Numbered from the stretch's first letter, positions 15,930 through 61,605 are shown. The stretch: 64,000 nucleotides of DNA from a virus (IMGVR_UViG_3300044732_000442:1-64000), one strand, 5' to 3'. Translations and numbers: made by a program. The notes: generated from the sequence alone by a model not told the origin.

Positions 15930-16811
15930 ATGAGAGCAATTGAATTTTTAACAGAAGCTAGAAACAGAATGTATCAATACATCAAAAGTATTGTTCCTAC
16001 CTGGCCTGAATATATTGTTAAAGATTGGCTCTATCAGGGATTTGGTCGTTATAATGATGAAAATCCTAAACGCAGATTATTGACTATGCTAAATCGTGAG
16101 GGTTTAAATAGAAACACTCAATGGCAATTTGTTCCTAACATGAAGTTTACTATGGATAATATGTGGACTACTCATACTTTAAGAAAACTCCAAGGTCGAG
16201 CCGGCGGACTTAGCGATATGGGAATGGACGTTCCCAGAGATTCTGAAAGACATGCTACACAAGCACAGTTAGCACAAAAACAAGGCGGTGTTAGAAGTGA
16301 ACCGGTGATACTAATTAAAAGACCTGACGGATACGAACTATTAGAAGGTTGGCATAGAACTATTCAGCACTTTCATAAATTTCCAGATGGTTACACGGGT
16401 CCTGCTTATGTTGCAGTTGCTCAAAGTAAGCAAGGTGTAGCGGAAGGCAATTTTGATTCCTTCAAATTTGGTAAGCCAATTACCTTTACTGCCTACCATT
16501 CTTCCGATTCAAAAATAAAAAGAATTCTCCCAACAGACGAATTTTATTTCAGTGATGATAGATACACATGGGAAGGAAACTATCTTTACAAAATAAAGAT
16601 AACTTTGAAAAATCCTTATGTCGTGCTAGATCAGAAAGCAGGGTACGAAGGTCATGCTACAGACTCTCTTCCAAAGATAAAGGCAGCTGGGTATGACGGG
16701 GTTATATATACCCCACATTCTGTTGATTATGGGTTTAGACAAGGCGTTTGTTTTTACCCACAAAAGCAAATATCTAACATCAAGTTAGTTAACTCTGATA
16801 GTGGTAAATAA
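15930..16811 (+). CDS. two-module protein: ParB/Srx-like domain + QGVAEG linker + ADP-ribosyltransferase-like domain
   Basis: MRAIEFLTE start; EPVILI...YELLEGWHR; then AYHSS...FYFS...LKNP...GYDGVI. Confidence 0.6.
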   Translation: MRAIEFLTEARNRMYQYIKSIVPTWPEYIVKDWLYQGFGRYNDENPKRRLLTMLNREGLNRNTQWQFVPNMKFTMDNMWTTHTLRKLQGRAGGLSDMGMDVPRDSERHATQAQLAQKQGGVRSEPVILIKRPDGYELLEGWHRTIQHFHKFPDGYTGPAYVAVAQSKQGVAEGNFDSFKFGKPITFTAYHSSDSKIKRILPTDEFYFSDDRYTWEGNYLYKIKITLKNPYVVLDQKAGYEGHATDSLPKIKAAGYDGVIYTPHSVDYGFRQGVCFYPQKQISNIKLVNSDSGK

Positions 16812-25741: not shown

Positions 25742-25812
25742 CTTCCCAAGCATTTTACGAAATGCAAATAAAAATCATAAATAGATAAATATATATAAGA
25801 AAAAGGATACCT

Positions 25813-26442
25813 ATGCGTAGTCTAAAACAATACATAACCGAAAGTCTTAAAAGTTACAACTATACTATAAAGATTGCTGGTGATGTGGATAAAAACTTTA
25901 TAGATATGTTTAAATACAATCTAAACAAGTTTGACCCGATCAGAATCAGCGATCCAGTGAAAACACCTATACAGAAAGATCCATACGGATTTCCTAATTT
26001 AGCAAATCAATCTGTAACTATTATTAAAGCAGACTTCAGATACCCAGCTACTGAACCTATGATACAGCAAATTGCTCAACTTCTAGGATACAACATCAAT
26101 ATGGTTCGTGTTATCAGCAGTCAATATGACGATAGCATTAATAGCGAGGCTGAAGGCTACGCTAATGAAATGAAAGATAGCCCAATACTTACACATGAAG
26201 AAATGGGTGAGCAACCTGGTGCTAAAGAAGCAAATAAAGCATATGGTGATAGTTATCTATCTAGTATCAAAGACCAAATGAAGGGTTCAACTATTGATAT
26301 CCCTTATGCAGGACAAAAAACACCAAACTCGTTTGATCCATTCAAACCATATTTGGATGATAAGAAATTAGGCGATAAGAGTCCGATGAGTACAATTACA
26401 CGTCCACCAAAGCCAGCAACTGGCGCCAGTGTATCTAAATAA
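25813..26442 (+). CDS. putative internal head protein
   Basis: MRSLKQYITE start resembles the T4 capsid-targeting peptide; late boxes at 25778 and 25786. Confidence 0.5.
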   Translation: MRSLKQYITESLKSYNYTIKIAGDVDKNFIDMFKYNLNKFDPIRISDPVKTPIQKDPYGFPNLANQSVTIIKADFRYPATEPMIQQIAQLLGYNINMVRVISSQYDDSINSEAEGYANEMKDSPILTHEEMGEQPGAKEANKAYGDSYLSSIKDQMKGSTIDIPYAGQKTPNSFDPFKPYLDDKKLGDKSPMSTITRPPKPATGASVSK

Positions 26443-28848: not shown

Positions 28849-28899
28849 GGCTATAGTGTTTATAAGAAAACGATAAATACTAAATAAGGTAATATAGTT

Positions 28900-47267: not shown

Positions 47268-48728
47268 ATGAGTACGATTGTTATAATGCCCGGAGGATTT
47301 CATCCCTTTCATGCTGGACATGCATCATTGTATCAATCCGCATTAAAAGCATTTTCGGGTGCTGATGTATATGTTGCGGCTACTAATGATACAAAGACAA
47401 GACCTTTCCCATTTGCTATTAAAGAAAAATTAGCTAAGGTAGCAGGTGTAGCTCCTGGACATTTTATACAAGTTAAAAGTCCCTTTCAACCTAGAGAAAT
47501 TACTGATAAGTTTAATCCAGAACAAGATGTAGTAATATTTGTTCGTAGTGAAAAGGATCGTAATGAGAGTCCTAAACCAGGTGGAACAAAGAAAGATGGT
47601 AGTCCAGCTTACTTTCAACCATATACAGGCAAAGATGTACAACCATTTGGCAAACATGCATATATGGCTTATTTACCTACAGTAGAATTTGGTCCTGGTA
47701 TTAGTAGTGCAACAGAGATACGTAATGCATGGCCTAAATTGAATGACAAACGTAAGACTGCAATGGTTATGAGTTTGTATCCAGCAACACAAAAGAATCC
47801 TAAATTAGCCGCTAACGTTGTTAAGATGTTAGATATGGGTATGGGTAATGAGTTAGCAGAAGGATTAATAAATGAATTTGTACCACCGAGTAGCGACAGA
47901 GGTGGCGGGGATGATAGAAGTCGTAGAATAAGAAAACTATTAGAAATTGCTATACAAGTAGCAAAGGAAAAAAATGTTGATGAATTGGGTATGATTCATG
48001 CTATGAATATGATAGCAGGTGATGAATTTTTCAATACAGCAGTTGAAGGTATACTACCAGATATAACAGATAAAGAATATATGTTTGTGCTACAGAGTGC
48101 TTATAAAACAGTAAAGCAAGGTTTGGCGGAAGGTGATGTTGTTCCATTCAAACAACCATCAAAAACATTAACGTGGCAACAAGTACCTAAAGATATTTTG
48201 ATGTTAGCAAATGATTGGTTTTGGGCAAGTGAAGATAACTCAGGTCTTGCCGCTACGATAGATCCTGATGGTTTCGGTAATGGTACTGCTAATGATGTAA
48301 AGTATAATGCCGCTAAACTTCAACAAAAAGGTTGGACAATTGATTTTAATGATGAATATGATGGGCCGGGTGAGTTCAATCTAAGACTTACTAACAATCG
48401 TGGACAAAATGTATTGTTGTCTATTGAAGATGCTCAGACATTTACTGGCTGGGCAAAGGGTACTAGTCAGTATGATTTAGAAGAAGGCCCTATAGTTAAA
48501 CGTATTGTTCATCCTAACAAGATTAATATCTATGTAAGACCAGGTGGTAATAAACCTCCTTTACTTGTCGCAACAGATATTCCTTATAAAATATTTGATA
48601 AGTATGTAAACAAAGCTATACAAAAATACCCACAGTTTAAACAAACTGATTTCTCATTCAAATCTTCAGATAAAATTAAGGAAGAAACTAATTTATCCGA
48701 AAGTGCTGATTACTTAGACGAAAATTAA
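47268..48728 (+). CDS. cytidylyltransferase-like (HxGH) domain followed by several small modules
   Basis: PGGFHPFHAGH and ISSATEIR motifs; then LAEG/LINE, QGLAEG and LEEG junctions. Confidence 0.75.
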   Translation: MSTIVIMPGGFHPFHAGHASLYQSALKAFSGADVYVAATNDTKTRPFPFAIKEKLAKVAGVAPGHFIQVKSPFQPREITDKFNPEQDVVIFVRSEKDRNESPKPGGTKKDGSPAYFQPYTGKDVQPFGKHAYMAYLPTVEFGPGISSATEIRNAWPKLNDKRKTAMVMSLYPATQKNPKLAANVVKMLDMGMGNELAEGLINEFVPPSSDRGGGDDRSRRIRKLLEIAIQVAKEKNVDELGMIHAMNMIAGDEFFNTAVEGILPDITDKEYMFVLQSAYKTVKQGLAEGDVVPFKQPSKTLTWQQVPKDILMLANDWFWASEDNSGLAATIDPDGFGNGTANDVKYNAAKLQQKGWTIDFNDEYDGPGEFNLRLTNNRGQNVLLSIEDAQTFTGWAKGTSQYDLEEGPIVKRIVHPNKINIYVRPGGNKPPLLVATDIPYKIFDKYVNKAIQKYPQFKQTDFSFKSSDKIKEETNLSESADYLDEN

Positions 48729-48785
48729 AAATATTTTGATCACCTCGTTTTGATGTAAATATTACTATCTTAACAAGAGGATCAA

Positions 48786-49733
48786 ATGGCAACTAAGAAA
48801 ACAACTGAAAAGGCAATTGCAAAACCAGCAAAAGCCGCAACTAAAGCACCGGCTAAGGCTAAATCTACAAAAACAGTTCCTGTAGAAAAAATACAGGAAA
48901 TTGCCGCACAAGCAGCCGCAAATCCACCGGCAGCACCAGCTCCGGGACAAGTACAAGTTAATGTAGACTTTTTAAAAACTACTAAAGTACATATCGCTAT
49001 GCCATGTTATGGTGGTATGTTAACTGAATCAACATTCATGAGTTTCATCAAGTGGGCTAATACTGCCCGTCAACTTGGTATTGATTGGACATTAGAAACA
49101 ATGGTTAATGAATCACTCATTAGCCGAGCACGTAACACATTGACTGCTAAGTTCCTAGATATGCCAGAAGCAACACACTTATTCTTTGTTGACGCTGACA
49201 TTGGTTGGGAGCCATGGCACTTACTAGTATTATTGAACCGTGACGTAGATGTTATTGGTGGATTGTACCCAATGAAGACAATGCCAATCAAATGGGTTGT
49301 TAACGGATTTGAAGGTGCAGAAGAAGGTCCAGATGGACTACAAGAAGTATCTAAAGCAGGTACAGGTTTCTTGTTGATGAAGAAACATGTGTTTGAGAAA
49401 ATGAAGTCTCATCCAGCTGTTAAACAATATAAGAACGACATTGGATTAGATCCAAAGTTTGACCAACACTTGAAAACATATTTTGACACAGCAGTTCGTC
49501 AGAATCGTTATTATAGTGAAGATTGGACATTCTGTGAAAACTGGCGTGATATGGGTGGCAAGATTTGGATGGACAAACGTGTATTGTTACGTCATTCAGG
49601 ATCATATGTTTTCTGTATGGAGAATCAAGAACACTTGATGAAAACTGTAGGACCCATGTTCTTACAAGAACAACAAGAAAAGCACGGCATGAAGTTTATT
49701 GATAAAGACGGCAACGAAATTAAGAAACTATAA
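48786..49733 (+). CDS. GT-A fold glycosyltransferase-like protein
   Basis: IAMPCYG, SLISRARN, FFVDADI (DxD), GTGFLL, SEDWTFC; Ala/Lys/Pro-rich N-terminal arm. Confidence 0.75.
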   Translation: MATKKTTEKAIAKPAKAATKAPAKAKSTKTVPVEKIQEIAAQAAANPPAAPAPGQVQVNVDFLKTTKVHIAMPCYGGMLTESTFMSFIKWANTARQLGIDWTLETMVNESLISRARNTLTAKFLDMPEATHLFFVDADIGWEPWHLLVLLNRDVDVIGGLYPMKTMPIKWVVNGFEGAEEGPDGLQEVSKAGTGFLLMKKHVFEKMKSHPAVKQYKNDIGLDPKFDQHLKTYFDTAVRQNRYYSEDWTFCENWRDMGGKIWMDKRVLLRHSGSYVFCMENQEHLMKTVGPMFLQEQQEKHGMKFIDKDGNEIKKL

Positions 49734-49734
49734 C

Positions 49735-49756
49735 AAAAGCCCCGAAAGGGGCTTTT
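49735..49756 (+). terminator. Rho-independent terminator
   Basis: AAAAGCCCC-GAAA-GGGGCTTTT. Confidence 0.88.
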
Positions 49757-49799
49757 AACTGGATTTGACTAAATACTACGTGAAAACAAAAGGAATATT

Positions 49800-50732
49800 A
49801 TGCAACTTGACAATGTAACTATTAGTGGTGGATTTGCTTATACAGTAGGAGCTCCCACTCAAGCAACAGCAGGATGGTATGGTGGAGGTAGAGCACCATC
49901 ATCTGTATCTACCGTGCAAAGAATAACTTTTGCAACTGACACCTCAACAGCAAGTGTACGTGGTCCATTAAGCTTCATCGTATCTCAATTTGCCGCGGCC
50001 GGCAATACAACTAACGGATGGTTTGGCGGAGGTTATACAGAGCCTGGACAAACATCTACAGTTCAACGAATAACATACGCAACAGATACAGCAACAGCGA
50101 CAGCACGTGGTCCTTTAAGTTTAACACTAAGTGGTTTAGTAGCCACCGGTAATACAACTGACGGTTGGTTTGGCGGAGCCTTTTCCATATCAACCGTAAA
50201 TAGGATCACTTATTCAACAGATACAGCAACTGCATCGGTTCGAGGTCCATTTAGCGCAAGTAAACTATTTTCGGCAGCAGCCGGTAATACAACTGACGGA
50301 TGGTTTTTTGGAGGCAGAGGATCTGAGTCGGTAGTAAATCGTATAACATATGCAACAGATACAAATACTGCAAGTGTACGTGGTCCGGTAAGTTTTGGTG
50401 TTGAGGCAGCAGCCGGTACCGGCAACACCACCGACGGATGGTTTGGAGGTGGTTATTCACCGGGCAATGGGAGGATTAGTACTATACAACGAATAACATA
50501 CTCAACAGATACAGCAACAGCAAGTGTTCGTGGTCCTTTAAGTGTAGCCGGGAGTTCCTGGTCTGCATCTAGTGACACCACATATGGATGGTTTGGTGGA
50601 GGTTATGTCGTTCCTAATATAATATCTACAATTCAACGAATAACTTTTGCAACAGATACTGTAACAGCGACAGCACGTGGACCGTTAAGTCTAGCAAGCC
50701 GACAGTTGGCCAGTGCATCCGGTATACAATAA
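49800..50732 (+). CDS. kelch-like beta-propeller repeat protein, family B (6 repeats)
   Basis: Six RIT(Y/F)xTDT/RGP repeats, ends ASASGIQ; late box at 49770. Confidence 0.75.
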   Translation: MQLDNVTISGGFAYTVGAPTQATAGWYGGGRAPSSVSTVQRITFATDTSTASVRGPLSFIVSQFAAAGNTTNGWFGGGYTEPGQTSTVQRITYATDTATATARGPLSLTLSGLVATGNTTDGWFGGAFSISTVNRITYSTDTATASVRGPFSASKLFSAAAGNTTDGWFFGGRGSESVVNRITYATDTNTASVRGPVSFGVEAAAGTGNTTDGWFGGGYSPGNGRISTIQRITYSTDTATASVRGPLSVAGSSWSASSDTTYGWFGGGYVVPNIISTIQRITFATDTVTATARGPLSLASRQLASASGIQ

Positions 50733-50735
50733 AAT

Positions 50736-51959
50736 ATGGACTTAAAAGAACTACATTCATTCAAAATGTCAGATGCAGTGACATTTCACGATAACCTCAA
50801 TCCAAAATTATTTCGTGGTCAGCACTTACAGCCTGAAGTAGAACTACAACTAAAAAATATAGCACAAGATTTCTTACAAGAGATGGGGATACATGATTTA
50901 GATGTACGAGATATCACTATCTCTGGAAGTAATGCAGCCTATAGCTACACAGACCATAGCGACTTAGATTTACATATATTAGTCAATATGAAGGATCTAC
51001 CAGACGATGACATTTACCATGAATTCTTCAAAGCTAAAAAAGATTTATACAACGATTCACATGATATCACTATCAATGGAATTCCAGTAGAATTGTATAT
51101 ACAGGATGCGGCAGAACCTGTAACTAGTTTAGGTGAATATAGTGTTAAAGATAAGAAATGGTTGCGTTTGCCAACTAAACGTAGAGCAAATTTTGACCAA
51201 ACAGCTACTAAAGCAAAATATACAAAACTATTAGATATTATTGATACAGCATTACAATCTAATAAAATAGGTAAAGTTAATAAAATATTAAAAAAGATTA
51301 AGCAATATCGTCAAGCTGGCTTAGATAAAGGTGGAGAGTTTGGACCTGAAAATCTAGCATATAAAGCATTACGTAGCCGTGGATATATTACAAAACTATA
51401 TGATTTAAGAGATAGATTACATAGCAAACATTTGAGTTTAGATAACATGTATGCTAATGTAGATGAAGATTATGATCCAAATGGACCTCCACCTGGTCCA
51501 GAGTTTAAGCCAACAATGCCTGCCGGTACAGTTAAAGTAGATGTAAGTGATGTATATGATTGGTATAAACTAGGTCAACATATTAGCAATCTTGATGGTT
51601 TAGGTAAACATGATTTTGGTCAAGGTCCTCCTAGCACTATTCTTGCGTTTGGCGATGAAGATACTGAACATAAATATATTAAAGATTTAGAAAAAACAGG
51701 ATTGACAACAACGGATATTGATCCAGTTGATATTAATCAGCCTAAAGGTATGAAACGTCAGAAGACTGATCCTACATACAATGTGGGCGAAGCCTCAGGT
51801 TATATACCATCTGAAAAAGAGAAAAAAGACCCACGTTTTAGTACAGCATTAACAGTAGATGTTAAGCCTGACAGCATCAAAAAGAACGCAAAAGCATTCT
51901 ATTGGAATACAAGTAGAGCGGGTATTCCACCAACAGCAAAGCCATCAGGCAAAATCTAA
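50736..51959 (+). CDS. Pol-beta-superfamily nucleotidyltransferase domain plus two appended modules
   Basis: ISGSNAAY...SDLDLHI (GS...DxD), VELYIQD; junctions VDE (51459) and VGE (51783). Confidence 0.7.
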   Translation: MDLKELHSFKMSDAVTFHDNLNPKLFRGQHLQPEVELQLKNIAQDFLQEMGIHDLDVRDITISGSNAAYSYTDHSDLDLHILVNMKDLPDDDIYHEFFKAKKDLYNDSHDITINGIPVELYIQDAAEPVTSLGEYSVKDKKWLRLPTKRRANFDQTATKAKYTKLLDIIDTALQSNKIGKVNKILKKIKQYRQAGLDKGGEFGPENLAYKALRSRGYITKLYDLRDRLHSKHLSLDNMYANVDEDYDPNGPPPGPEFKPTMPAGTVKVDVSDVYDWYKLGQHISNLDGLGKHDFGQGPPSTILAFGDEDTEHKYIKDLEKTGLTTTDIDPVDINQPKGMKRQKTDPTYNVGEASGYIPSEKEKKDPRFSTALTVDVKPDSIKKNAKAFYWNTSRAGIPPTAKPSGKI

Positions 51960-52014
51960 TAAGTTTCCATATTATGGTATTTTGATAAATACACTATTAG
52001 TATGGAAATCCGTT

Positions 52015-52938
52015 ATGAAAATCAAACAAATCACTGAAACTACAACCGCAGGCTCAATAGCTACTGTAAATTCACCATTAGGTGGCACTCAAAGTAGGGG
52101 AAATACTAGCATATATGGTGGCAAAAAAGTAGGAACTCTATTCAAGGGTAAAAAGACTAGTGTCCCATATGCTAATAGCATCAATGAAAGTGCTGAACTT
52201 AGTGAAGCACAACTAGAAGAAGATGATGTTATTGTCGTTCCGGGACAAGGTCGCAAATCAAAAACTGGATTTGTTCCACATGGACAAAGTCGTATAGACC
52301 ATGAAGTTGAGATGGCACGTAGTGATTTATTCAGTGCCGCAAAGAATGCTCAACAAGTCTATTCAATGATTAAAGATGTTAGTGAAGATGAAGGTCTTGA
52401 TGGTTGGGTACAAGAAAAGATTATTAAAGCTAATGACTATCTAAACACAATACGTGAATACTTAGAAGGTAAACAAATTCAAGGTGTGAATGAAGGACCC
52501 GAGTTTGGTTCAAAGTATGCAGAAAAATTAGCACAATATGTTTATAATGTTAGACCTAATCTTAATAGTGAAGATGATGTTTTAAACATAGGATATAAAG
52601 TTGCTGTACAAGATTTAGCCAGTCAAACACGTGCTGTATCGTTGTTTAGCAGAGATCAAGATTTCCCTAGTGACTTTGTAAGTGCTTATAGATTCTTACA
52701 AAAAAGACGAGGTGTAACAGAAAACAACCAAAGAGGTGATTCACTTGTTACTGACTCATTAAAAATAATGCGTGGTGCAGAAGTAAGTGATGCTGTAAGA
52801 GCACTAACGACCGTACTAGGAAATAGAGAATACAATAGCCGTCGTGGTTTTTACAATTTCTATATTAAACAAATGATTGATATGTATAGACAACAAGGTG
52901 TGAATGAAGGTTCTAAGTCACCTAATAAGAAAGCGTAA
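52015..52938 (+). CDS. modular putative internal head protein
   Basis: Start reassigned to MKIKQITE behind late box 51986; QGVNEG twice and RGVTE junctions. Confidence 0.65.
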   Translation: MKIKQITETTTAGSIATVNSPLGGTQSRGNTSIYGGKKVGTLFKGKKTSVPYANSINESAELSEAQLEEDDVIVVPGQGRKSKTGFVPHGQSRIDHEVEMARSDLFSAAKNAQQVYSMIKDVSEDEGLDGWVQEKIIKANDYLNTIREYLEGKQIQGVNEGPEFGSKYAEKLAQYVYNVRPNLNSEDDVLNIGYKVAVQDLASQTRAVSLFSRDQDFPSDFVSAYRFLQKRRGVTENNQRGDSLVTDSLKIMRGAEVSDAVRALTTVLGNREYNSRRGFYNFYIKQMIDMYRQQGVNEGSKSPNKKA

Positions 52939-52939
52939 T

Positions 52940-55741
52940 ATGAGCAATATTCTTAAAGGTATAATAAACGAAACTAGTCCGCATAATTACGATAGTGATT
53001 GGGATTATCAGGATGCTTTAGCACGTAGTGGCAAATCACGTTCTAGCTATCGTTCACAAGAAGATGATACGTCTGATGCTGATATTGCATATTCTAAAAA
53101 GATGTATCAATTGGGTCAACAACAGAAGGCTGCTAAAGAGAAAGCTCAACGTGATAATGACCATGATAGATTAGCAACTGGTACAAATGAAGATGATAGT
53201 AATCAAACTAGAATGAGAATGAATGATTATTACGATTTAGCTGAGGCTCTTCAGGAAAAGCTTAGACAAGCAATTAAGATGGGTAATAACGAACTTGTAC
53301 ATAAATTATCCAAAGAACGTGCTGAATTAGATGCACGTGTTAAAAAATATGGATTAATGCCTGAATCAGAACAATTAGATGAAATCTCTAATGAGAAATT
53401 GGCACAATACAAAACAGCTGCCGCCGCCGACGCAGGCAAAGCTGATAAAGAGGGAGACTTTAAGCGTGGTGATAAACGTTTCAGTGGTATTGTTAAAGCA
53501 ACTAAGAAACAATTTGCAAATGATACAAAGAAATCTGGTATAGGTCAAGGTATTTCAGAAGATAGATTTAACAGTAAACAAGAAGTTATTAACCATTTTG
53601 TTAAAAATGGTAAAAGTGCGGCAGCAGGTGCGGCAGCATGGGAACGTGGTTATAGAGGTTCAAATCCTAACAAACCAATAGAAATAAAAAAGCCACCTCA
53701 AAGAAGTTACCATGATGATTTAGATGATAAACGTTATTCTAATACGTTTGAAAATTTAGGTGATCAACTAAAATCACAATCTCTAGAAGCATTACAACAA
53801 ATCAAACAACAAATTGAACAAAAACGTGCCGACGAATTAGCTCAATGGGAACAAGATTTTAGAAATAATGTTGCTGGCAAAATGAGAAGCCAACCAATAC
53901 GTTCACCGGAAGCAACACCGGTTGCACAACCTGGTGAGAAGCATTCAGTATTAAAAGCTAGATTAGCACAACTCAATAATGCTATACAAAAACAAGAACT
54001 ATTGGACAAGTTAATTGATAAAATTGACCGTAAAGGTTTGTTGACTCCAGCAATGCAGAACGATGCTGATACTAGAATGCATGTTAAGTATGGTGCAAAA
54101 GATAACTATCAATCATTGAATAAAAAGTTAGACAATTCTATTTCAATGTTACAGGATAGATTGTATATACGTAAAAAATCAGGTTTAAAAGAATCGCCTA
54201 AGAGAATTGATTATGATAGTGATACATATGATAATACTAGAATGGGTAGAGAGTATGGCAAGGCTAATCTATTTGTAGATCCGGGGTCAAATGAATTTAA
54301 AAAAGAAATACATCCTGGAGATCCTGAAGGTGAACGTGGTAGACCAAGAAATCTAAAAGGTATTTCAAAAAGGTTACCTGCTGATGCGTTTGGTCGTACT
54401 AGCGGAGTTGTTCCTGATAGTGCAAGACCTAAATCAAAAGAAGATCCTTTTAAAGGAGTAGATGAAGCTGATATGAACCGTAGAGGGTTTTTAGGACAAG
54501 CAGGCAAGGCTGCAGGTGCTGGCGCATTGGCTGCCGCAGGCTTAGGTGGTGCTAGCAATGCTCAAGCATTTAAGGGAACACTTCCTGCTCCTCGTATATC
54601 TGAAGATGAGGCTGAAGCTCAAATTAAAGAATTAAGAAGTAAAGCATATAAAGAGTTAGCAAGTATGATGTGGAATGTATGGCCTAAAATACTAGACACA
54701 ACATTTGGCGCAAATACTCCTCAAGATAAGCCAGCTACACCCGATGAAATTGGTAAAATGTTAGGCTACAGATTAGCTGAATATGCTGATGACTATAGAC
54801 AAAAAGTTAGAGCAATTAAAATAGCAGCCGGAGTAAGAGATCCTCAAAGTTTAAATAAAACAACTGCCGCAATTTATGTTAATGAACAAGAGATGGATGA
54901 GGGTTGGAGTCAAAAGTACAAGAGTAGTATCAACTGTAGTCATCCTAAAGGTTTTAGTCAAAAAGCTCATTGTGCAGGCAAGAAGAAACACAATGAAAGT
55001 ATTGACAATGTTATGGAAATGACATGTCCTGATTGTGGTATGTGTGAAACTCACGTAGACCATGCTAAGTTAGATGAAGCTTGTTGGAAAGGTTATCACA
55101 AAGAAGGTAACAAAAAAATGTTTGGCAAAACATATCCTAACTGTGTAAAGAATACTAACGAAGAACAACTAGATGAAAAATGCTGGGACACACATAAACA
55201 AGTTGGAATGAAAAACAAAGGTGGACGTATGGTCCCTAACTGTGTGCCTAAAGAAAGTGTAGAAGAACAACATTCACATAGTGAAAGTTGTCCGCATTGT
55301 GGTGGCGAGATGGTTAGTGAAGAACTAATGAATGAAAAGAAAGATGCTTGCTACTACAAAGTAAAGAGCCGTTATAAAGTATGGCCAAGTGCTTATGCAT
55401 CTGGTGCGTTAGTTAAGTGCCGCAATAAAGGCGCAAGTAACTGGGGTACAGGCGGAAAGAAAAATGAAAGCTCTATACTAGAAGGTATTGAACAAGCAGA
55501 CGAAAGTTTACATGATTGGTTCAATAAAGAAAAATGGGTTCGCATGGATACTAAAGGAAAGATTAAAGGTCCGTGTGCAAGAGAACCAGGCGAAGGTAAA
55601 CCAAAATGTTTGCCACAAAGTAAAGCACATAGTCTAGGTAAAAAGGGTCGTGCTAGTGCCGCTCAACGTAAGCGTAGAGAAGATCCTAATCCAGAACGTA
55701 GTGGCAAAGCCATTAATGTTGATACAAAAAAGAAAGATTAA
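52940..55741 (+). CDS. large modular putative head-cargo polyprotein with internal Tat-like signal and Cys-rich mini-modules
   Basis: Start MSNILKGIINE; more than ten LDE/VDE/LKE/MDE-type junctions; MNRRGFL at 54473. Confidence 0.65.
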   Translation: MSNILKGIINETSPHNYDSDWDYQDALARSGKSRSSYRSQEDDTSDADIAYSKKMYQLGQQQKAAKEKAQRDNDHDRLATGTNEDDSNQTRMRMNDYYDLAEALQEKLRQAIKMGNNELVHKLSKERAELDARVKKYGLMPESEQLDEISNEKLAQYKTAAAADAGKADKEGDFKRGDKRFSGIVKATKKQFANDTKKSGIGQGISEDRFNSKQEVINHFVKNGKSAAAGAAAWERGYRGSNPNKPIEIKKPPQRSYHDDLDDKRYSNTFENLGDQLKSQSLEALQQIKQQIEQKRADELAQWEQDFRNNVAGKMRSQPIRSPEATPVAQPGEKHSVLKARLAQLNNAIQKQELLDKLIDKIDRKGLLTPAMQNDADTRMHVKYGAKDNYQSLNKKLDNSISMLQDRLYIRKKSGLKESPKRIDYDSDTYDNTRMGREYGKANLFVDPGSNEFKKEIHPGDPEGERGRPRNLKGISKRLPADAFGRTSGVVPDSARPKSKEDPFKGVDEADMNRRGFLGQAGKAAGAGALAAAGLGGASNAQAFKGTLPAPRISEDEAEAQIKELRSKAYKELASMMWNVWPKILDTTFGANTPQDKPATPDEIGKMLGYRLAEYADDYRQKVRAIKIAAGVRDPQSLNKTTAAIYVNEQEMDEGWSQKYKSSINCSHPKGFSQKAHCAGKKKHNESIDNVMEMTCPDCGMCETHVDHAKLDEACWKGYHKEGNKKMFGKTYPNCVKNTNEEQLDEKCWDTHKQVGMKNKGGRMVPNCVPKESVEEQHSHSESCPHCGGEMVSEELMNEKKDACYYKVKSRYKVWPSAYASGALVKCRNKGASNWGTGGKKNESSILEGIEQADESLHDWFNKEKWVRMDTKGKIKGPCAREPGEGKPKCLPQSKAHSLGKKGRASAAQRKRREDPNPERSGKAINVDTKKKD

Positions 55742-55750
55742 AGAGTAATT

Positions 55751-56191
55751 ATGTTGTCAGACAATCTAAAAGTATTACTAGCAAGCACACAAAGTTTTGC
55801 TATCAAAACACAAAACTTTCATTGGAACGTAGAGGGAAGTAACTTTCCACAATATCACGAATTCTTTAATACATTGTACGAAGATGTAAGTGCTACGATT
55901 GATCCTATTGCTGAATATATAAGAATACTAGGTCACTATACTCCTGGCAGTCTAACACGTTATGCTGAACTAAGTATCATACAAGACCAAATAAAGATTC
56001 CACGTGCTGAATTAATGTTTGTTGAATCATTACAAGATTGTGAAACAATGCTTCAGTTAGTAACAGCAATGTTTGATGAGGCAGCTGGTGAGAATCAACA
56101 TGGTATTGAAAACTATATGGCTGAACTACAAGACTTGTATGGTAAGAAAGCATGGTTCATTCGTTCTATATTAAAAAGAGAACGTGAATGA
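55751..56191 (+). CDS. dps: Dps ferritin-like DNA protection protein
   Basis: FHWNVEGSNF..YHEFF..LYE......D.IAE.IR. Confidence 0.92.
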   Translation: MLSDNLKVLLASTQSFAIKTQNFHWNVEGSNFPQYHEFFNTLYEDVSATIDPIAEYIRILGHYTPGSLTRYAELSIIQDQIKIPRAELMFVESLQDCETMLQLVTAMFDEAAGENQHGIENYMAELQDLYGKKAWFIRSILKRERE

Positions 56192-57066
56192 GAGCAACAG
56201 AGTTTATTACCGAACAAGCAAATCCTAAAGTAGATTTGACTCCAAATTATCCTAACTATCAAGTGTTAGTGGGTGAGTTTGTCGGTATGAAAAAAAACAG
56301 AGCAAGATTTTTAATTGTAGCCTCTGAACTTAAACCAGGTGTGCGAGAGACTGATAAAATTTTTAGAGCTAGAACTACTAATACACCTATCAGTATTGAG
56401 ATTGGTAGGGTAAAAAATCGTAATGTAGTAGATGAAGATTTATCACGTAGAGGCTTCTTAGGTGGTTTAGCTGGTATGGCTGCACTAGGTACTAGAGATA
56501 CAAAACCTACTGTTAATAAAGATACACCAACGGCACCACAAAAAGAACCTACTGTAACTACATTGAGTAACAATCCTCAAATTGAGAGTTTATTACATAA
56601 AGCCGCTGTAGCTGCCGGTATAGTTGGTATTGAATTAGCACAGTTTATGGCTCAAACTAAACATGAATCCTGGAATTTTAGTAGACTAAAAGAAAAGGGT
56701 GTAGGTCAAGGCTATTTTGCTAAAAAGTATGACCGTCAATATGCACCACGTACTGCTAAGATATTGGGTAATAAGCAGATAGGTGATGGAGAAAAATATC
56801 ATGGTCGTGGATTTATTCAATTGACCGGTCGTGATAACTATCGTATGGCTAGTCAAAGTTTAGGTATTGATTTATTAAATGATCCTGATTTAGCAGAACG
56901 ACCAGATGTTGCAGCCAAGATTGCTATATGGTATTGGAAGACACGTGTTAAACCCTATATAAATAACTTCAACGATACGAAGGCAGTAACACAAAAGATT
57001 AATCCAGCACTACGTGGATTACAAGATAGACATGCAAAGTTTATTGACTACAAAAACATATTATAA
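56188..57066 (+). CDS. GH19 muramidase/chitinase-like protein with N-terminal module and internal Tat-like signal
   Basis: MRATEFITE start; SRRGFL at 56443; FMAQTKHES, YHGRGFIQLTGRDNY, TQKINP...GLQDR. Confidence 0.85.
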   Translation: MRATEFITEQANPKVDLTPNYPNYQVLVGEFVGMKKNRARFLIVASELKPGVRETDKIFRARTTNTPISIEIGRVKNRNVVDEDLSRRGFLGGLAGMAALGTRDTKPTVNKDTPTAPQKEPTVTTLSNNPQIESLLHKAAVAAGIVGIELAQFMAQTKHESWNFSRLKEKGVGQGYFAKKYDRQYAPRTAKILGNKQIGDGEKYHGRGFIQLTGRDNYRMASQSLGIDLLNDPDLAERPDVAAKIAIWYWKTRVKPYINNFNDTKAVTQKINPALRGLQDRHAKFIDYKNIL

Positions 57067-57074
57067 AGAGAACC

Positions 57075-57512
57075 ATGAAGAAAATAATAACAATCATACT
57101 ATTAGCAATATCTACTATTGCATTTGCACAAAAACAAAAGCCAATGAATGTATATGATTTTACAATCACTAGAGTTATTGATGGAGATACAGTAGCATTT
57201 CAAGCAACATTTTTACCCCCACCATTAAAGCAAGAATTAAGTATTCGTGTGTTTGGTGTTGACACACCTGAAAAGGGTCATAGAGCAATGTGCCCCAGTG
57301 AAGCACAGCGTGGCGAGGCTGCTTCGGCCTTCACAAAAAATGCCATAGCTAAAGCACAGAAACGTCAAGTAGCTATAGCTGATTGGGATAAGTATGGTGG
57401 ACGTGTATTGGGTGATATATTACTTGATGGACAAAGTTTAAGAATGATGTTAATACAGAATGGATTTGCAAGAGAATACTACGGAGAAGCTAAAACTTCT
57501 TGGTGCAACTAA
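57075..57512 (+). CDS. secreted thermonuclease (SNase family)
   Basis: Sec signal MKKIITIILLAISTIAFA; RVIDGDT, IRVFGVDTPE, DKYGGRVLG. Confidence 0.9.
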   Translation: MKKIITIILLAISTIAFAQKQKPMNVYDFTITRVIDGDTVAFQATFLPPPLKQELSIRVFGVDTPEKGHRAMCPSEAQRGEAASAFTKNAIAKAQKRQVAIADWDKYGGRVLGDILLDGQSLRMMLIQNGFAREYYGEAKTSWCN

Positions 57513-57513
57513 C

Positions 57514-57597
57514 ACCCTTAGGACCGTAACTTAGTTACGAGGGTAGGCGGCTTCTGCCTTAAGCAATCCAATTCGCTACTGGACCTTATAAGTGAGC
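57514..57597 (+). ncRNA. candidate structured RNA element
   Basis: GC-richer intergenic stretch with nested and tandem stems; family not recognised. Confidence 0.4.
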
Positions 57598-57609
57598 ATA
57601 AATACTAAT

Positions 57610-58185
57610 ATGAGAGCAATAGAACTATACGAATCGGCCGCAAGTGAACTAGCTAAGAAACTTCCTAGCTTAGAGAAACACGACTATAATACCATTGATA
57701 AGCTAATGAAAAACATAGCAAAGAAACATCGTATAACCGGTGATGCATTGCATGATTTGTTTGTTAGAAAATATCATAAGACTCCAGACAGTTGGATTAA
57801 AGATAAACTAGATGAGAGTGAACAAGAAGATTTGAATAACAATCCTATTGTACAGAAGTTTCTTGCTTGGACAAGTAAGAAGTTGAATTTAGAAAATACT
57901 CCAAAGATAGAGTTTAGTTATGATAGTGATGAAGCACAAGAAGGTCATCATACTGGTAGACACAATCCAGAGACGGGTGAAGTATGGGTTTATTGTGCTA
58001 ATAGAAATCTAGTAGATATATTACGTACTGTGTTCCATGAATTAACTCATGTACGCCAGGGTGAATTAAATATGATTAAGCCGGGTGATAGTTATCCAGG
58101 TAGTCCAATAGAAGCAGAAGCGGATGTAATGGCTGGCAAATATATTAAAATATTTGGTAAAGCACATCCAGAAATATTTCAATAA
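57610..58185 (+). CDS. N-terminal module + zincin-like metallopeptidase domain
   Basis: Start reassigned to MRAIELYE; KLDE junction; HELTH (HExxH) and downstream PIEAEAD. Confidence 0.7.
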   Translation: MRAIELYESAASELAKKLPSLEKHDYNTIDKLMKNIAKKHRITGDALHDLFVRKYHKTPDSWIKDKLDESEQEDLNNNPIVQKFLAWTSKKLNLENTPKIEFSYDSDEAQEGHHTGRHNPETGEVWVYCANRNLVDILRTVFHELTHVRQGELNMIKPGDSYPGSPIEAEADVMAGKYIKIFGKAHPEIFQ

Positions 58186-58197: not shown

Positions 58198-59202
58198 ATG
58201 TCAATATCAATAACAGGTGGAATATCATTTAGTGGTGGAGTAGGAATAACTGCCGCACCACCATCAACTCCAACAGCAGGATGGTTTGCAGGTGGGTCTG
58301 ACGATTCTGGTGTTACTTCAACAGTACAACGAATAACATATGCAACTGATACCGCTACTGCAAGTGTTCGTGGACCATTAAACGGCACCAGATATCAAAA
58401 TGCCGGTACCGGTAATTTAAATTATGGATGGTTTGCTGGTTCACGCATTACAGTTGCTATTAGCTCAGTATCAAGGATCACCTATGCAACAGATACTGAT
58501 ACAGCAAGTAATCGCGGCCCACTAAGTTATAGTGCTTATAGTATTACTGCGAACGGCACAGATACATATGGATGGTTTGCAGGTGGTAAGGATCAATCAC
58601 CTAGTGATTATTCTACAGTATCCAGAATAACATACGCAACTGATACTGGTACTGCAAGTACAAGGGGATCATTATCCGGTTGTTCATATCAAGGTGCAGC
58701 ATCTACTGACAGCACTACATATGGCTGGATTGCAGTAGGATTTGATAACCCTAGTACTATCGGATACCGTAGTATCGTAACTAGGATAACATATGCCACT
58801 GATACAGTAACATCAACTATTAGAGGTCCATTAAGTTCAACTAGATCATCAATGGCCGGTACTGGTAGTACAAGTTATGGTTGGTTTGCCGGTGGATTTT
58901 TCGTCGGCCCGCCGACATGGGAGGGAATTTATTATTCTAGGGTAGATCGTATTGATTATGCAAATGATACCGCTACAGCAAGTGTTCGTGGTCCGTTAAC
59001 TAGAACTAATCAAGGTCAAGCAGCATCAACCGATGGAACAACATATGGTTGGTTTGGTGGAGGAAATAATTTTTCAACTCCTGCCGGTCCTTTTTCTTCC
59101 GTAGACAGAATAACATATGCTACTGATACTGTTACTGCGACTGCACGTGGCCCGTTAAGTTCCGGTAGGAGGGTTTTTGCTGCCTCATCCGGTATACAAT
59201 AA
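58198..59202 (+). CDS. kelch-like beta-propeller repeat protein, family B (6 repeats)
   Basis: Six repeats; close paralog of 14099-15082. Confidence 0.75.
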   Translation: MSISITGGISFSGGVGITAAPPSTPTAGWFAGGSDDSGVTSTVQRITYATDTATASVRGPLNGTRYQNAGTGNLNYGWFAGSRITVAISSVSRITYATDTDTASNRGPLSYSAYSITANGTDTYGWFAGGKDQSPSDYSTVSRITYATDTGTASTRGSLSGCSYQGAASTDSTTYGWIAVGFDNPSTIGYRSIVTRITYATDTVTSTIRGPLSSTRSSMAGTGSTSYGWFAGGFFVGPPTWEGIYYSRVDRIDYANDTATASVRGPLTRTNQGQAASTDGTTYGWFGGGNNFSTPAGPFSSVDRITYATDTVTATARGPLSSGRRVFAASSGIQ

Positions 59203-59217
59203 TATAAAGGTTAAAAA

Positions 59218-59715
59218 ATGTCAATAACAATAACAGGTGGAATAACATTAAATGGTGGTGGTTGGACTATTGAGGCACCACCGGCGGGTATTAGGGCTAT
59301 ATTTGGTTATGGAAATGATGGATCAGTAACATCAATAACTAATTTAGTATCAACTACTGGTGTTGTTGCCACAGATACCGCAGGGGTAGGGACTGCTAGA
59401 TATGGATTGGCAGCCGCAGGATATGGCACAGATAAAGCTATATTTGGATATGGATATGCCTCTCCAAGCGCACGTTCAATCACCAATCTAGTATCAAATA
59501 CAGGTGTTGTTGCTACTGATACAGCAGGTGTAGGTACTGCTAGATATCAAATAGCCGCCGCAGTGTATGGCACAGATAAGGCTATATTTGGTTATGGATA
59601 CGGGGTTTCTTGGACATCAATAACTAACCTAGTATCAAACACCGGTGTAGTAGCAACAGATACAACAGGTGTTGGCACTGCTAGAGCTGAAATTGCGGCA
59701 GCAGCCTACGGTTAA
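59218..59715 (+). CDS. kelch-like repeat protein, family A (3 repeats)
   Basis: Three AIFGYG/NTGVV repeats with intact leader and AAYG end. Confidence 0.75.
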   Translation: MSITITGGITLNGGGWTIEAPPAGIRAIFGYGNDGSVTSITNLVSTTGVVATDTAGVGTARYGLAAAGYGTDKAIFGYGYASPSARSITNLVSNTGVVATDTAGVGTARYQIAAAVYGTDKAIFGYGYGVSWTSITNLVSNTGVVATDTTGVGTARAEIAAAAYG

Positions 59716-59737
59716 TTATACAATAAAGGTTTTATAA

Positions 59738-60397: not shown

Positions 60398-60440
60398 CAT
60401 TATGATTAACATAAATACATTTATTATAAAGGAAAATAAA

Positions 60441-60656: not shown

Positions 60657-60659
60657 AGA

Positions 60660-61583: not shown

Positions 61584-61605
61584 TTATACAAAGAAAGAAT
61601 AAAGA

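What the first reader, a model, noticed from the sequence alone, without database searches (positions are those of the whole stretch)
47268..58185. Candidate head-packaged cargo polyprotein system: effector modules strung on prohead-protease sites
Seen: genes at 47268, 50736, 52015, 52940, 56188 and 57610 (and 15930 and 26450 elsewhere) are concatenations of unrelated short modules. Their boundaries fall on a recurring acidic motif: QGVAEG, QGLAEG, QGVNEG (twice), RGVTE, QGISE, KGVDE, QLDE, KLDE, MDEG, LEEG, VDE, VGE. Several begin with MRAIEFLTE, MRATEFITE, MRAIELYE, MKIKQITE or MSNILKGIINE. Established: T4 internal proteins carry a capsid-targeting peptide (MKTYQEFIAE) and the gp21 prohead protease cuts after [LI]-x-E. 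Inference: these are polyproteins packaged in the head, cut into separate small proteins at maturation and ejected with the DNA. The recognisable cargo is conflict-type enzymes: ParB-like, ART-like, HxGH and Pol-beta nucleotidyltransferases, an HExxH peptidase and GH19.
Basis: partly seen in the sequence, partly recalled or inferred. Interest (0 to 1): 0.9.

Follow-up and report, generated by a model that had tools for sequence, protein, structure and literature searches.

The report
Capsid-tagged phage cargo polyproteins, protease-site joints
An uncultured giant T4-related phage puts a T4-style "load me into the head" peptide on many unrelated proteins and builds several as chains of swappable modules joined at the cutting motif of the T4-type head protease; this is probably an undescribed way to pack changeable enzymes into the virion, but neither cutting nor packing has been measured.

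Summary
Observation confirmed. The window is part of a 116-kb fragment of a ~340-kb T4-related jumbo phage. A nine-residue leader, M-R-A-x-E-F-[ILV]-x-E, resembles T4's capsid-targeting sequence MKTYQEFIAE. It heads at least 32 unrelated proteins in related contigs.

Homology breakpoints of the six listed genes lie at [VLIM]-x-Glu: 54% against 15% expected, 0 of 4000 permutations. Modules that follow the leader in one protein sit behind V/L/I-x-E in another. Complete relatives each encode one gp21-type protease. Cyanophage S-SM1 protein SSM1_115 shares modules with the 933-residue protein and was detected in purified virions (Sullivan 2010).

Interpretation partly supported. Packaging, cutting and ejection are inferred. 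Gene 26450 is colinear with its relative, and gene 47268 has no leader. GH19 passes Pfam's cut-off. ParB-like, ART-like, nucleotidyltransferase and zincin calls are leads.

New here: the QGVAEG joint is fixed in DNA as CAAGGTGTGGCGGAAGGC, written in rare codons. It occurs in over 120 viral contigs, and module swaps cross over inside it. The joint is therefore also an in-frame recombination site.

This scan found the same architecture, and this same linker, on other DNA before. Verdict: new variant of a known kind.

The parts
15930..16811 (+). 293-aa two-module protein. Leader MRAIEFLTE (15930-15956), ParB/Srx-like module (aa 10-167), joint QGVAEG (16431-16448), ART-PolyVal-like module (aa 174-293).
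   Evidence: Sequence. Homologues keep module A and swap or lack module B exactly at QGVAE[GD]; stand-alone forms of 161-179 aa end just before the joint. Module B is 97-98% identical where module A is 40-62% identical. pLDDT falls at residue 167. Fold matches to sulfiredoxin/ParB have probability 0.8-0.97 but E about 0.04. Atlas lead to ART-PolyVal: score 0.93, TM 0.65-0.68.
25813..26442 (+). 209-aa protein with a leader-like N-terminus MRSLKQYITE. Candidate single-module member.
   Evidence: Colinear with G002 at 96% identity. ATAAATAT lies 21 nt upstream. No family match.
47268..48728 (+). 486-aa protein with no leader. HxGH nucleotidyltransferase-like module (aa 1-198), then three modules. 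Joints NELAEG/LINE (47847-47876), QGLAEG (48117-48134), DLEEG (48474-48488).
   Evidence: Sub-threshold matches: Pfam CTP_transf_like E 7e-4 and TIGR00125 E 1.5e-5 at 25.1 bits against a cut-off of 27.7. Breakpoint clusters at aa 200, 296 and 395. The G002 orthologue is 93% identical up to aa 290 and different afterwards.
50736..51959 (+). 407-aa protein. Pol-beta-type nucleotidyltransferase-like module (aa 1-243), then two modules. Joints NVDE (51456-51467) and NVGE (51780-51791). N-terminus MDLKE.
   Evidence: phrog_36119 matches aa 15-235. Weak Pfam NTase matches. Cyanophage matches stop at aa 235-244. G002 lacks aa 247-349 exactly between the two joints. Breakpoint clusters at aa 245 and 349.
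52015..52938 (+). 307-aa three-module protein. Leader MKIKQITE (52015-52038). Joints QGVNEG (52480-52497), RGVTE (52708-52722), QGVNEG (52894-52911).
   Evidence: Nucleotide comparison: in L002, L004-6, L019, L020, L023 and L037 the alignment stops inside the first joint and resumes inside the second, and the two pieces abut in the relative. Other relatives carry a different insert there. ATAAATAC lies 23 nt upstream.
52940..55741 (+). 933-aa string of about 12 modules. Leader MSNILKGIINE (52940-52972). Junctions TGTNE 53177-53191, EQLDE 53369-53383, QGISE 53546-53560, GLKE 54182-54193, KGVDE 54452-54466, EMDEG 54890-54904, AKLDE 55064-55078, EQLDE 55163-55177, SVEE 55256-55267, SILEG 55472-55486. 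Internal Tat signal 54467-54568. The C-terminal third consists of small Cys-rich basic modules.
   Evidence: Orthologues at the same place (upstream of the Dps-like gene) range from about 340 to 1445 aa and carry the modules in permuted order. Breakpoint clusters. TIGR01409 Tat signal scores 17.4 bits against a cut-off of 16.7 on the piece starting at aa 510. Modules are shared with cyanophage T4-GC119 proteins.
56188..57066 (+). 292-aa protein. Leader MRATEFITE (56188-56214), 74-aa module, NVVDE (56422-56436), Tat-like DLSRRGFLGGLAGMAALG (56437-56490), GH19 domain (about 56632-56955).
   Evidence: Pfam Glyco_hydro_19 E 1.4e-16 at 61.4 bits against a cut-off of 25.5. In L041, L021 and L022 the RRGFLG segment follows the leader directly. 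In other loci it lies 83-392 aa inside, always right after V/L/I-x-E. In G002 the 74-aa module ends a different leader protein. TIGR01409 does not match this copy.
57610..58185 (+). 191-aa protein. Leader MRAIELYE (57610-57633), helical module, KLDE (57805-57816), minimal zincin-like HExxH module (about 57844-58182).
   Evidence: Model pLDDT 83.8 with a dip at aa 61-70. Fold matches to abylysin, SPRTN and Wss1 have probability 0.96-0.99 but E 0.14-0.45. H143, E144, H147 and E168 are invariant in 14 orthologues. The L037 orthologue carries a ~130-aa insert exactly after KLDE. The two halves hit different cyanophage genes.
48786..50732 (+). Two genes inside the interval that are not part of the set: 48786-49733 (phrog_1574, unknown function) and 49800-50732 (repeat protein).
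   Evidence: No leader and no joints.
55751..57512 (+). Two further non-members interleaved with gene 56188: Dps/ferritin-like 55751-56191 and SNase-like nuclease with a Sec-type signal 57075-57512.
   Evidence: Pfam Ferritin E 9.4e-17 and SNase E 1.2e-11. Neither has a leader.

Best explanation
These genes encode T4-type head cargo.

1. The nine-residue leader M-R-A-x-E-F-[ILV]-x-E acts like the T4 capsid-targeting sequence. It docks the protein onto the scaffolding core of the prohead (inferred).
2. The phage's gp21-type protease then cuts after the Glu of V/L/I-x-E. This removes the leader and, in multi-module proteins, separates the modules (inferred).
3. The pieces stay in the head and enter the next host with the DNA (inferred). 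They include ParB/Srx-like, ART-like, nucleotidyltransferase-like, zincin-like and GH19 modules and many small basic Cys-rich modules.
4. Two Tat-type signals lie directly behind a cut site. They would become N-terminal only after cleavage, which suggests some cargo is routed onward to the periplasm (inferred).
5. Shown here: leaders and joints follow this grammar, modules are gained, lost, permuted and exchanged exactly at the joints, and multi-module genes arise by fusion of neighbouring leader-bearing genes.
6. Also shown here: the commonest joint, QGVAEG, is kept letter for letter in DNA and serves as the crossover point. The same 18 bases are therefore both a likely cut site and an in-frame recombination joint.
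For: Leader:
- At least 32 unrelated first modules carry it in 80 related loci.
- Its codons vary synonymously and the upstream DNA is not conserved, so selection acts on the peptide.
- It shares E-F-I-x-E with T4 IPII/IPIII MKTYQEFIAE.
- T4 gp24, Alt, gp22, gp21, gp67 and gp68 likewise start with a short [LI]xE.

Protease:
- One Peptidase_S77 gene occurs in each of 4 complete relatives. They share 78-96% identity with the window's colinear proteins.
- Their capsid protein has LLAE|SSAG where T4 gp23 has LTE|AEIGG.
- gp21 cuts after L/I-x-E (PMC9026906).

Joints:
- Breakpoints lie at [VLIM]xE in 54% of clusters against 15%, 0 of 4000 permutations, and the control motifs are flat.
- In 31 non-redundant cases a post-leader module is internal elsewhere. 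Glu is at -1 in 21 and V/L/I at -3 in 20, mostly without QG.
- A fossil internal leader PKLMRANEFVKE|EAKAIK exists in L008.
- Model confidence drops at the joints.

Cleavage logic: RRGFLG always lies 2-4 residues after the Glu, whether behind the leader or 83-392 residues inside the protein. One copy passes the TIGR01409 cut-off.

Virion link: S-SM1 T4-GC119 is listed as 'Structural protein, Y, 13 counts' (PMC3037559 Table S8). Its product SSM1_115 shares three modules with the 933-aa protein (E 1e-18, 5e-17, 5e-7) and one with the 79029(-) protein (7e-11).

Exchange:
-.
- The ART-like module is 97-98% identical where the ParB-like module is 40-62% identical.
Against: - No proteomic or biochemical datum exists for this phage or any close relative. 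None is cultured: megablast found nothing, and the nearest cultured tail sheaths are 43-47% identical.
- The window's own contig holds no protease or capsid gene, being 34% complete.
- The QGVAEG joint uses rare codons (GTG 60 of 76, GCG 63 of 72, against 7-9% and 5-6% in the genome). Its recurrence could therefore be explained by recombination alone.
- In T4, phiKZ and SPN3US the cut-off parts are propeptides that are degraded, not separate functional products (PMC10052503).
- Gene 47268 has no leader.
- [VLIM]xE also occurs inside modules: 54 sites in the six proteins.
- A Tat signal on injected cargo has no precedent that I found.
Confidence: 0.55

Rival explanations
1. The proteins are mosaic multi-domain proteins that stay in one piece. 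The joints are flexible linkers kept mainly as in-frame recombination sites for cassette shuffling. The V/L/I-x-E rule is a relic of fused leaders. The proteins may or may not be packaged.
For: The 18-mer CAAGGTGTGGCGGAAGGC is fixed in 102 unrelated contexts in rare codons (P 4e-48 for GTG, 5e-67 for GCG), with no conservation in the flanks. There are more than 120 exact copies in IMG/VR, always in frame. Crossovers lie inside the joints. Module divergence is discordant. Fusions of leader-bearing genes are seen.
Against: Most of the 31 mapped junctions are not QGVAEG and differ in DNA, yet they keep Glu at -1 and V/L/I at -3 while the rest of the leader has decayed. Tat-type signals 83-392 residues inside a protein should be useless without a cut. 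Unrelated enzymes with different targets would remain tethered. This rival is not exclusive of the main reading for the QGVAEG class.
Confidence: 0.25
2. Only one module per protein is the mature head protein. The upstream modules are long propeptides that bind the scaffold and are chopped and expelled, as in phiKZ and SPN3US.
For: SPN3US head proteins have propeptides of 111-254 residues containing several cleavage motifs (PMC10052503).
Against: Upstream modules look like enzymes: ParB/Srx-like, and HxGH and Pol-beta NTase-like. They also exist as stand-alone leader proteins. Module order is freely permuted.
Confidence: 0.08
3. Processing is done by another protease: the co-encoded minimal zincin (57610), as proposed for the MPTase of polyvalent proteins, or a host enzyme.
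For: The zincin-like fold with invariant HExxH...E carries a leader itself. Iyer et al. 2017 propose MPTase-driven processing of polyvalent proteins.
Against: The joint motif fits the gp21 rule and the predicted capsid-protein maturation site. The zincin is a separate small protein and is not embedded in the polyproteins.
Confidence: 0.06
4. The leader is not a capsid address. It could be a degradation tag for the phage's own Clp machinery, or a translation-initiation feature.
For: The phage encodes DnaJ and a ClpA/B-type ATPase. By N-terminal sequence only, it also seems to encode ClpX-, ClpP-, ClpS- and DnaK-like proteins. Codons 2-3 are strongly AGA GCA.
Against: Positions 5-9 vary synonymously and keep E-F-[ILV]-x-E, the part T4 uses for targeting and processing. 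When genes fuse, only V/L/I-x-E survives.
Confidence: 0.05

Closest known systems
Phage T4 internal proteins IPI, IPII, IPIII and Alt: capsid-targeting sequence plus gp21 processing (Mullaney and Black 1996; reviews PMC3012670, PMC9026906)
   Same: A short N-terminal leader ending in [LI]-x-Glu sits on otherwise unrelated, fast-evolving proteins. A gp21-type protease is present in the clade. The core E-F-I-x-E is shared with MKTYQEFIAE. An ART-like cargo module recalls Alt.
   Different: The leader is one residue shorter and P3 also accepts Val. Many proteins are multi-module chains with internal sites, which is not known for the T4 internal proteins. Joints are shuffled and one is DNA-fixed. 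Cryptic Tat signals lie behind cut sites. Nothing has been measured.
Polyvalent proteins of phages and conjugative elements (Iyer et al. 2017, PMC5512222)
   Same: Several unrelated conflict-type domains (ParB-like, ART-PolyVal-like, zincin, lysozyme-type, GNAT in homologues) lie in one polypeptide that is thought to be delivered with the DNA and split into units.
   Different: These proteins are much smaller. They have no embedded MPTase and no MuF or virion RNA polymerase context. The proposed splitting is by the head protease at V/L/I-x-E joints behind a T4-type leader.
Inner-body / ejection proteins of phiKZ, 201phi2-1 and SPN3US, cut by gp175/gp245 (PMC10052503, PMC9026906)
   Same: Many head-internal proteins are cut after Glu at a three-residue motif, often at several sites.
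   Different: There the motif is S/A/G-x-E and the cut-off parts are propeptides that are degraded. Here P3 is V/L/I and the parts look like independent modules.
PeSL mobile regulatory cassettes of T4-type phages
   Same: Short conserved DNA at unit boundaries promotes modular shuffling among T4-type phages.
   Different: PeSLs lie between genes and carry a promoter and a stem-loop. The 18-mer here lies inside open reading frames, in frame, and encodes a likely protease site.
Cyanophage T4-GC119 virion protein (S-SM1 SSM1_115; Sullivan et al. 2010, PMC3037559)
   Same: It is built from the same small Cys-rich basic modules as the C-terminal third of the 933-aa protein. The order is permuted, the junctions are V/L/I-x-E-like, and the protein was detected in purified virions.
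   Different: It has no MRAxEF leader and no QGVAEG 18-mer, and it comes from a different phage family. The paper calls it a hypothetical or structural protein and does not discuss processing.

Membership tests
T4-type capsid-targeted internal proteins | N-terminal leader of about 10 residues ending in [LI]-x-Glu, shared by otherwise unrelated proteins | tested here: met
   M-R-A-x-E-F-[ILV]-x-E sits on at least 32 unrelated first modules. It is present on genes 15930, 56188 and 57610, with looser forms on 52015, 52940 and 25813. T4 IPII/IPIII MKTYQEFIAE was read from the T4 record. Gene 47268 lacks it.
T4-type capsid-targeted internal proteins | The same phage encodes a gp21-type (Peptidase_S77) prohead protease | tested here: inconclusive
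   None in the window's own 116-kb contig, which is 34% complete. One copy above Pfam's cut-off in each of four 95-100% complete relatives, which share 78-96% identity with the colinear proteins.
T4-type capsid-targeted internal proteins | The protein is present in the mature head | not testable with these tools
   Indirect only: cyanophage S-SM1 T4-GC119, which shares modules, was detected in virions (PMC3037559 Table S8).
T4-type capsid-targeted internal proteins | The leader is removed by cleavage after the Glu | not testable with these tools
   Needs N-terminal sequencing or semi-tryptic mass spectrometry.
Polyvalent proteins (Iyer 2017) | Two or more unrelated conflict-type domains in one polypeptide of a phage | tested here: inconclusive
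   15930 combines a ParB/Srx-like fold (PF02195 in homologues) with an ART-PolyVal lead. Pfam and NCBIfam give no match on the window's own sequence.
Polyvalent proteins (Iyer 2017) | Embedded MPTase or other peptidase domain for self-processing | tested here: not met
   No peptidase domain lies inside the multi-module proteins. The zincin-like module belongs to a separate 191-aa protein.
phiKZ-type processed inner-body proteins | Cleavage motif S/A/G-x-Glu | tested here: not met
   P3 at 31 mapped junctions is V (10), L (6) or I (4).
Glycoside hydrolase family 19 | Match to Pfam PF00182 above the gathering score | tested here: met
   61.4 bits against a cut-off of 25.5, covering aa 149-256 of gene 56188.
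Twin-arginine (Tat) signal peptide | Match to TIGR01409 above its cut-off; position near the N-terminus | tested here: inconclusive
   The 52940 internal copy scores 17.4 bits against a cut-off of 16.7 when the sequence starts at aa 510. The 56188 copy gives no match. Both are internal in the primary translation product. In L021, L022 and L041 the same segment follows the leader directly.
PeSL-type recombination cassettes | Intergenic promoter plus stem-loop flanking mobile genes | tested here: not met
   The 18-mer is always inside long ORFs and in frame. Copy spacings are multiples of three.

The most novel reading that the evidence does not exclude
The 18-base QGVAEG joint is a dedicated in-frame cassette-exchange site. 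It would work as a kind of integron for capsid cargo, letting a whole clade of giant freshwater phages plug modules in and out of protease-cuttable polyproteins. Cleavage in the head would also unmask Tat signals, so that part of the injected cargo (for example the GH19 muramidase) is re-exported by the new host into its periplasm.
Probability: 0.2. Interest if true: 0.9.

Novelty: new variant of a known kind. Interest (0 to 1): 0.72.

Why it matters
- T4's capsid-targeting sequence is the textbook way a phage loads anti-defence proteins into its head. It is known there for single proteins.
- If the reading is right, a widespread group of uncultured giant phages has turned this into a modular system. 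One address tag, a universal cut site and a DNA-fixed recombination joint would let any small protein be added to the injected arsenal.
- That would explain hundreds of mosaic 'hypothetical' phage proteins.
- It would give a sequence rule for predicting injected proteins from metagenomes.
- It would provide natural parts (leader, joint) for loading foreign proteins into phage heads.
- The cryptic Tat signals behind cut sites raise a testable question about where injected phage proteins go.
- I found no description of this architecture in the searchable literature.

Tried and rejected
- Megablast of the region against 50,697 phage records found no match.
- The T4 late promoter TATAAATA is not enriched: 5 copies against 12 expected. 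The shorter ATAAATA[CT] is not enriched in number either, but 19 of 20 copies are on the + strand and by my count about 13 lie within 60 nt upstream of gene starts. I use this only as a hint of late expression.
- Pfam and NCBIfam give nothing for either module of 15930, for the later modules of 47268, or for 52015.
- The AlphaFold model of 15930 is unusable beyond residue 167. I therefore could not test the ART claim by fold and fell back on the ESM Atlas.
- Foldseek E-values for both models are weak, 0.04-0.5, so the fold assignments are leads.
- Gene 26450 as a shuffled polyprotein is rejected for now, because it is colinear with G002.
- I considered whether the QGVAEG motif is a DNA signal independent of coding. 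All copies with up to 2 mismatches in two genomes are in frame and on the sense strand, so it is tied to the reading frame.
- I considered internal translation starts at the joints. There is no start codon at a workable distance (read from the consensus).
- The literature search for QGVAEG and MRATEF returned only alpha-synuclein papers.

Full report
**What the DNA is**

The window is the first 64 kb of a 116,115-base IMG/VR virus contig that CheckV rates 34% complete.
- Its 1196-residue tail sheath is 43-47% identical to those of the jumbo phages PA5oct, Atu_ph07 and Phosso.
- Megablast finds no close cultured relative.
- A search with the Dps-like gene at 55751-56191 gave 369 related stretches in IMG/VR. 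Eighty were kept, with up to 10 kb on each side (L001-L080).
- Four of these lie in records of 335-525 kb that are 95-100% complete.
- Each of the four has one Peptidase_S77 (T4 gp21-type) protease above Pfam's cut-off, followed by a scaffold-like gene and a gp23-type capsid gene.
- The closest complete relative, G002, shares 78-96% identity with the window's colinear proteins.
- The window's own contig holds no protease or capsid gene. That is expected for a fragment.

**Check of the observation**

Every quoted N-terminus and motif is present.

The leader:
- It occurs in 5 of 163 ORFs under a loose pattern, and the copies are near-identical. My rough estimate of the chance expectation is about 1.
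- In the related loci it reads M-R-A-x-E-F-[ILV]-x-E and heads at least 32 first modules with no similarity to each other. Up to eight such genes stand in a row in L070.
- Codons at positions 5-9 vary synonymously: GAA 49 and GAG 19, TTT 42 and TTC 15, and four codons for Ile/Leu. The upstream DNA is not conserved. The peptide is therefore what is conserved.

The QG[VLIM]xE motif:
- It occurs 8 times against 1.0 in shuffles, and 7 of the 8 are in leader-bearing proteins.
- In G002 all 7 copies lie in orthologues of these proteins.

**Module boundaries**

- The orthologue of the 933-residue protein, always just upstream of the Dps-like gene, ranges from about 340 to 1445 residues and carries the shared modules in different orders.
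- Over the six genes of the interval I collected 28 clusters of internal homology breakpoints.
- 54% lie within 4 residues of a [VLIM]-x-Glu site, against 15% for random positions (0 of 4000 permutations).
- The control motifs [^VLIM]xE, [VLIM]xD and [VLIM]xK show nothing.
- A sharper test used modules that directly follow the leader in one protein and lie inside another. In 31 non-redundant cases the residue before the module is Glu in 21 and the residue at -3 is V, L or I in 20. Several of the rest are shifted by one or two residues.
- Most of these junctions are not QGVAEG. Examples are NVDE, KLSE, LVNE, QLNE, NIDE and KVLE.
- L008 keeps a whole internal leader, PKLMRANEFVKE|EAKAIK, and L073 keeps a decayed one.

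Multi-module genes therefore arise by fusion of neighbouring leader genes. Afterwards only V/L/I-x-E is kept.

**Examples of exchange**

- *Gene 15930.* Homologues keep the first module. They then either stop just before the joint (161-179 residues) or continue after QGVAE[GD] with quite different modules, GNAT among them. The second module is 97-98% identical in proteins whose first module is only 40-62% identical. Proteins whose first module is 89-96% identical carry another second module.
- *Gene 52015.* At the nucleotide level, alignments to eight relatives stop inside the first joint, resume inside the second and abut in the relative. Other relatives carry a different insert there.
- *Gene 50736.* G002 lacks exactly residues 247-349, between NVDE and NVGE.
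- *Gene 57610.* The L037 orthologue has a ~130-residue insert right after KLDE.
- *Gene 26450.* By contrast it is colinear with G002. I do not count it as a shuffled polyprotein.

**Fit to the T4 system**

- gp21 cuts after L/I-x-Glu. The ten-residue CTS of IPIII suffices for packaging, with targeting at residues 4 and 7 and processing at residues 8 and 10 (PMC9026906).
- From the T4 record, IPII and IPIII start MKTYQEFIAE and IPI starts MKTFKEF...ITE.
- gp24 starts MAKINELLRE, Alt MELITELFDE, gp22 MLKEQLIAE and gp21 MNEPQLLIE.
- The leader here shares E-F-I-x-E with the CTS.
- The relatives' capsid protein reads ...KQLLAE|SSAGTTTAGNIATLN where T4 gp23 reads ...SFLTE|AEIGGDHGYNATNIAAG. This is a likely L-A-E maturation site.
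- T4-even phages are said to carry diverse internal proteins with only the CTS conserved (PMC3012670).
- In T4, phiKZ and SPN3US the parts cut off are propeptides (PMC10052503).
- Separate functional modules released from one chain would therefore be a new use of the same machinery.

**Link to a real virion**

- The C-terminal third of the 933-residue protein consists of small Cys-rich basic modules. These also build the cyanophage T4-GC119 proteins.
- In S-SM1 this gene product, SSM1_115, shares three modules in another order (E 1e-18, 5e-17, 5e-7). It shares one module with the 79029(-) protein (7e-11).
- Table S8 of Sullivan et al. 2010 lists T4-GC119 as 'Structural protein, Y, 13' for purified S-SM1 virions.
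- Its junctions also read VLE|G, IQE|G and QNE|S.
- S-SM2_108 starts MKTLKQFLKE.

This is the only experimental support, and it comes from a distant phage.

**Cargo identities**

| Gene / module | Call | Basis |
|---|---|---|
| 56188, C-terminal part | GH19, secure | Pfam 61.4 bits against a cut-off of 25.5 |
| 15930, first module | ParB/Srx-like, lead | Models well up to residue 166; top fold matches are sulfiredoxin and ParB-type proteins at weak E-values; several homologues carry PF02195 |
| 15930, second module | ART-PolyVal-like, lead | Could not be modelled; ESM Atlas places it by features (0.93) and by structure (TM 0.65-0.68) |
| 47268, N-terminal module | HxGH nucleotidyltransferase, lead | Just under the family cut-offs |
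| 50736, N-terminal module | Pol-beta NTase, lead | Weak matches; cyanophage homologues annotated as nucleotidyltransferases |
| 57610, C-terminal module | Minimal zincin, lead | Matches abylysin, SPRTN and Wss1 with high probability but weak E-values; HExxH...E invariant |

**Tat signals**

- The segment D-[LM]-[ST]-R-R-G-F-L-G always starts 2-4 residues after a junction Glu.
- It follows the leader directly in L021, L022 and L041. It lies 83-392 residues inside the protein in the window's GH19 gene and in five other contexts.
- The copy in the 933-residue protein passes the TIGR01409 cut-off when read from residue 510. The GH19 copy does not.
- An internal Tat signal makes sense only if the chain is cut in front of it.

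**The joint is fixed in DNA**

- In 102 non-redundant contexts the joint reads (A)(G)CAAGGTGTGGCGGAAGGC, and the flanks show no conservation.
- Val is GTG in 60 of 76 cases, Ala is GCG in 63 of 72, and the next Gly is GGC in 40 of 53.
- In the genome GTG is 7-9% of Val codons, GCG 5-6% of Ala codons and GGC 14% of Gly codons. The P values are 4e-48, 5e-67 and 9e-24.
My rough estimate of the chance expectation is a few.
- Copies are always on one strand within a locus, their spacings are multiples of three, and they lie in ORFs with a median length of 491 residues.
- L119, L170 and L187 show chains of 50-170-residue modules, each ending in QGVAE.
- Together with the crossovers inside joints and the discordant module divergence, this marks the joint as an in-frame recombination site kept uniform by repeated exchange.

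This weakens the argument that the QGVAEG motif recurs because of the protease. It does not touch the argument from the many other V/L/I-x-E junctions.

**Verdict**

- The mechanism (capsid address, cutting by the head protease, delivery with the DNA) is the best-supported reading at about 0.55, but every step of it is inferred.
- The main rival is that the chains stay whole and the joints serve recombination only (about 0.25).
- I found no paper describing this architecture.
- Earlier notes of this scan report the same architecture in many other uncultured T4-like phages, and one reports this very QGVAE-G linker as DNA-fixed. I reached the DNA-level result before reading those notes. They are AI notes and do not count as independent evidence.

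Noticed in passing
window 16431-16448 and 48117-48134; L001-L080; L113-L192: The QGVAEG joint is conserved as DNA (CAAGGTGTGGCGGAAGGC) in rare codons across more than 100 unrelated contexts and more than 120 IMG/VR stretches. The window's own copies differ from it by 1-2 bases (CAAGGTGTAGCGGAA, CAAGGTTTGGCGGAA).
   Followed up: yes
window 51985-51992, 57598-57605, 1326-1333, 14065-14072, 15105-15112, 21596-21603, 25785-25792, 28873-28880: ATAAATA[CT], often preceded by G, lies 12-60 nt upstream of many + strand genes, including two leader genes and tail genes. 19 of 20 copies are on the + strand. It is probably the late promoter of this clade, a variant of T4's TATAAATA.
   Followed up: partly
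window 42882-43679 and 43704-45980; beyond the window at about 98.5, 100.8, 103.3 and 106.4 kb of the contig: The phage carries DnaJ and a ClpA/B-type ATPase (Pfam). By N-terminal sequence only, it also seems to carry ClpX-, DnaK-, ClpS- and ClpP-like genes. That is an unusually full chaperone and protease set for a phage.
   Followed up: partly
window 55751-56191: A Dps/ferritin-like protein (Pfam E 9.4e-17) without a leader lies in the middle of the cargo genes. It is 82-97% identical in the 80 kept of 369 related IMG/VR stretches and is a good anchor for this clade.
   Followed up: partly
window 57075-57512: A staphylococcal-nuclease-like protein with a Sec-type signal (MKKIITIILLAISTIAFAQ) lies between two leader genes.
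   Followed up: no
window 52039-52080; L087 1342-2538; L112 12324-13607: The residues after the leader of gene 52015 (TTTAGSIATVN) resemble the predicted mature N-terminus of the relatives' capsid protein (SSAGTTTAGNIATLN). They also resemble T4 gp24 (LRE|STTTNSNSIG) and IPI (TSTTTPVSTITE). This could be an extended recognition element for the protease or the scaffold.
   Followed up: no
L081-L084 (protease genes of the four complete relatives): The gp21-type protease itself starts MA(L)YLKE|HLTF...MVVE|S. This is a short [L]xE N-terminus like T4 gp21's LIE-9.
   Followed up: partly
L037 11595-12566: The orthologue of gene 57610 carries an insert right after KLDE. By eye it looks like a sigma-70 region-4 helix-turn-helix (LTDDQRKVLILRFWYDMTLQQIGDRF...).
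   Followed up: no
window 49800-50732, 58198-62532, 13090-15082, 24803-25741: There are many paralogous repeat proteins (GWFGGG... / KAIFGYG... units) without leaders. They are interleaved with the cargo genes.
   Followed up: no
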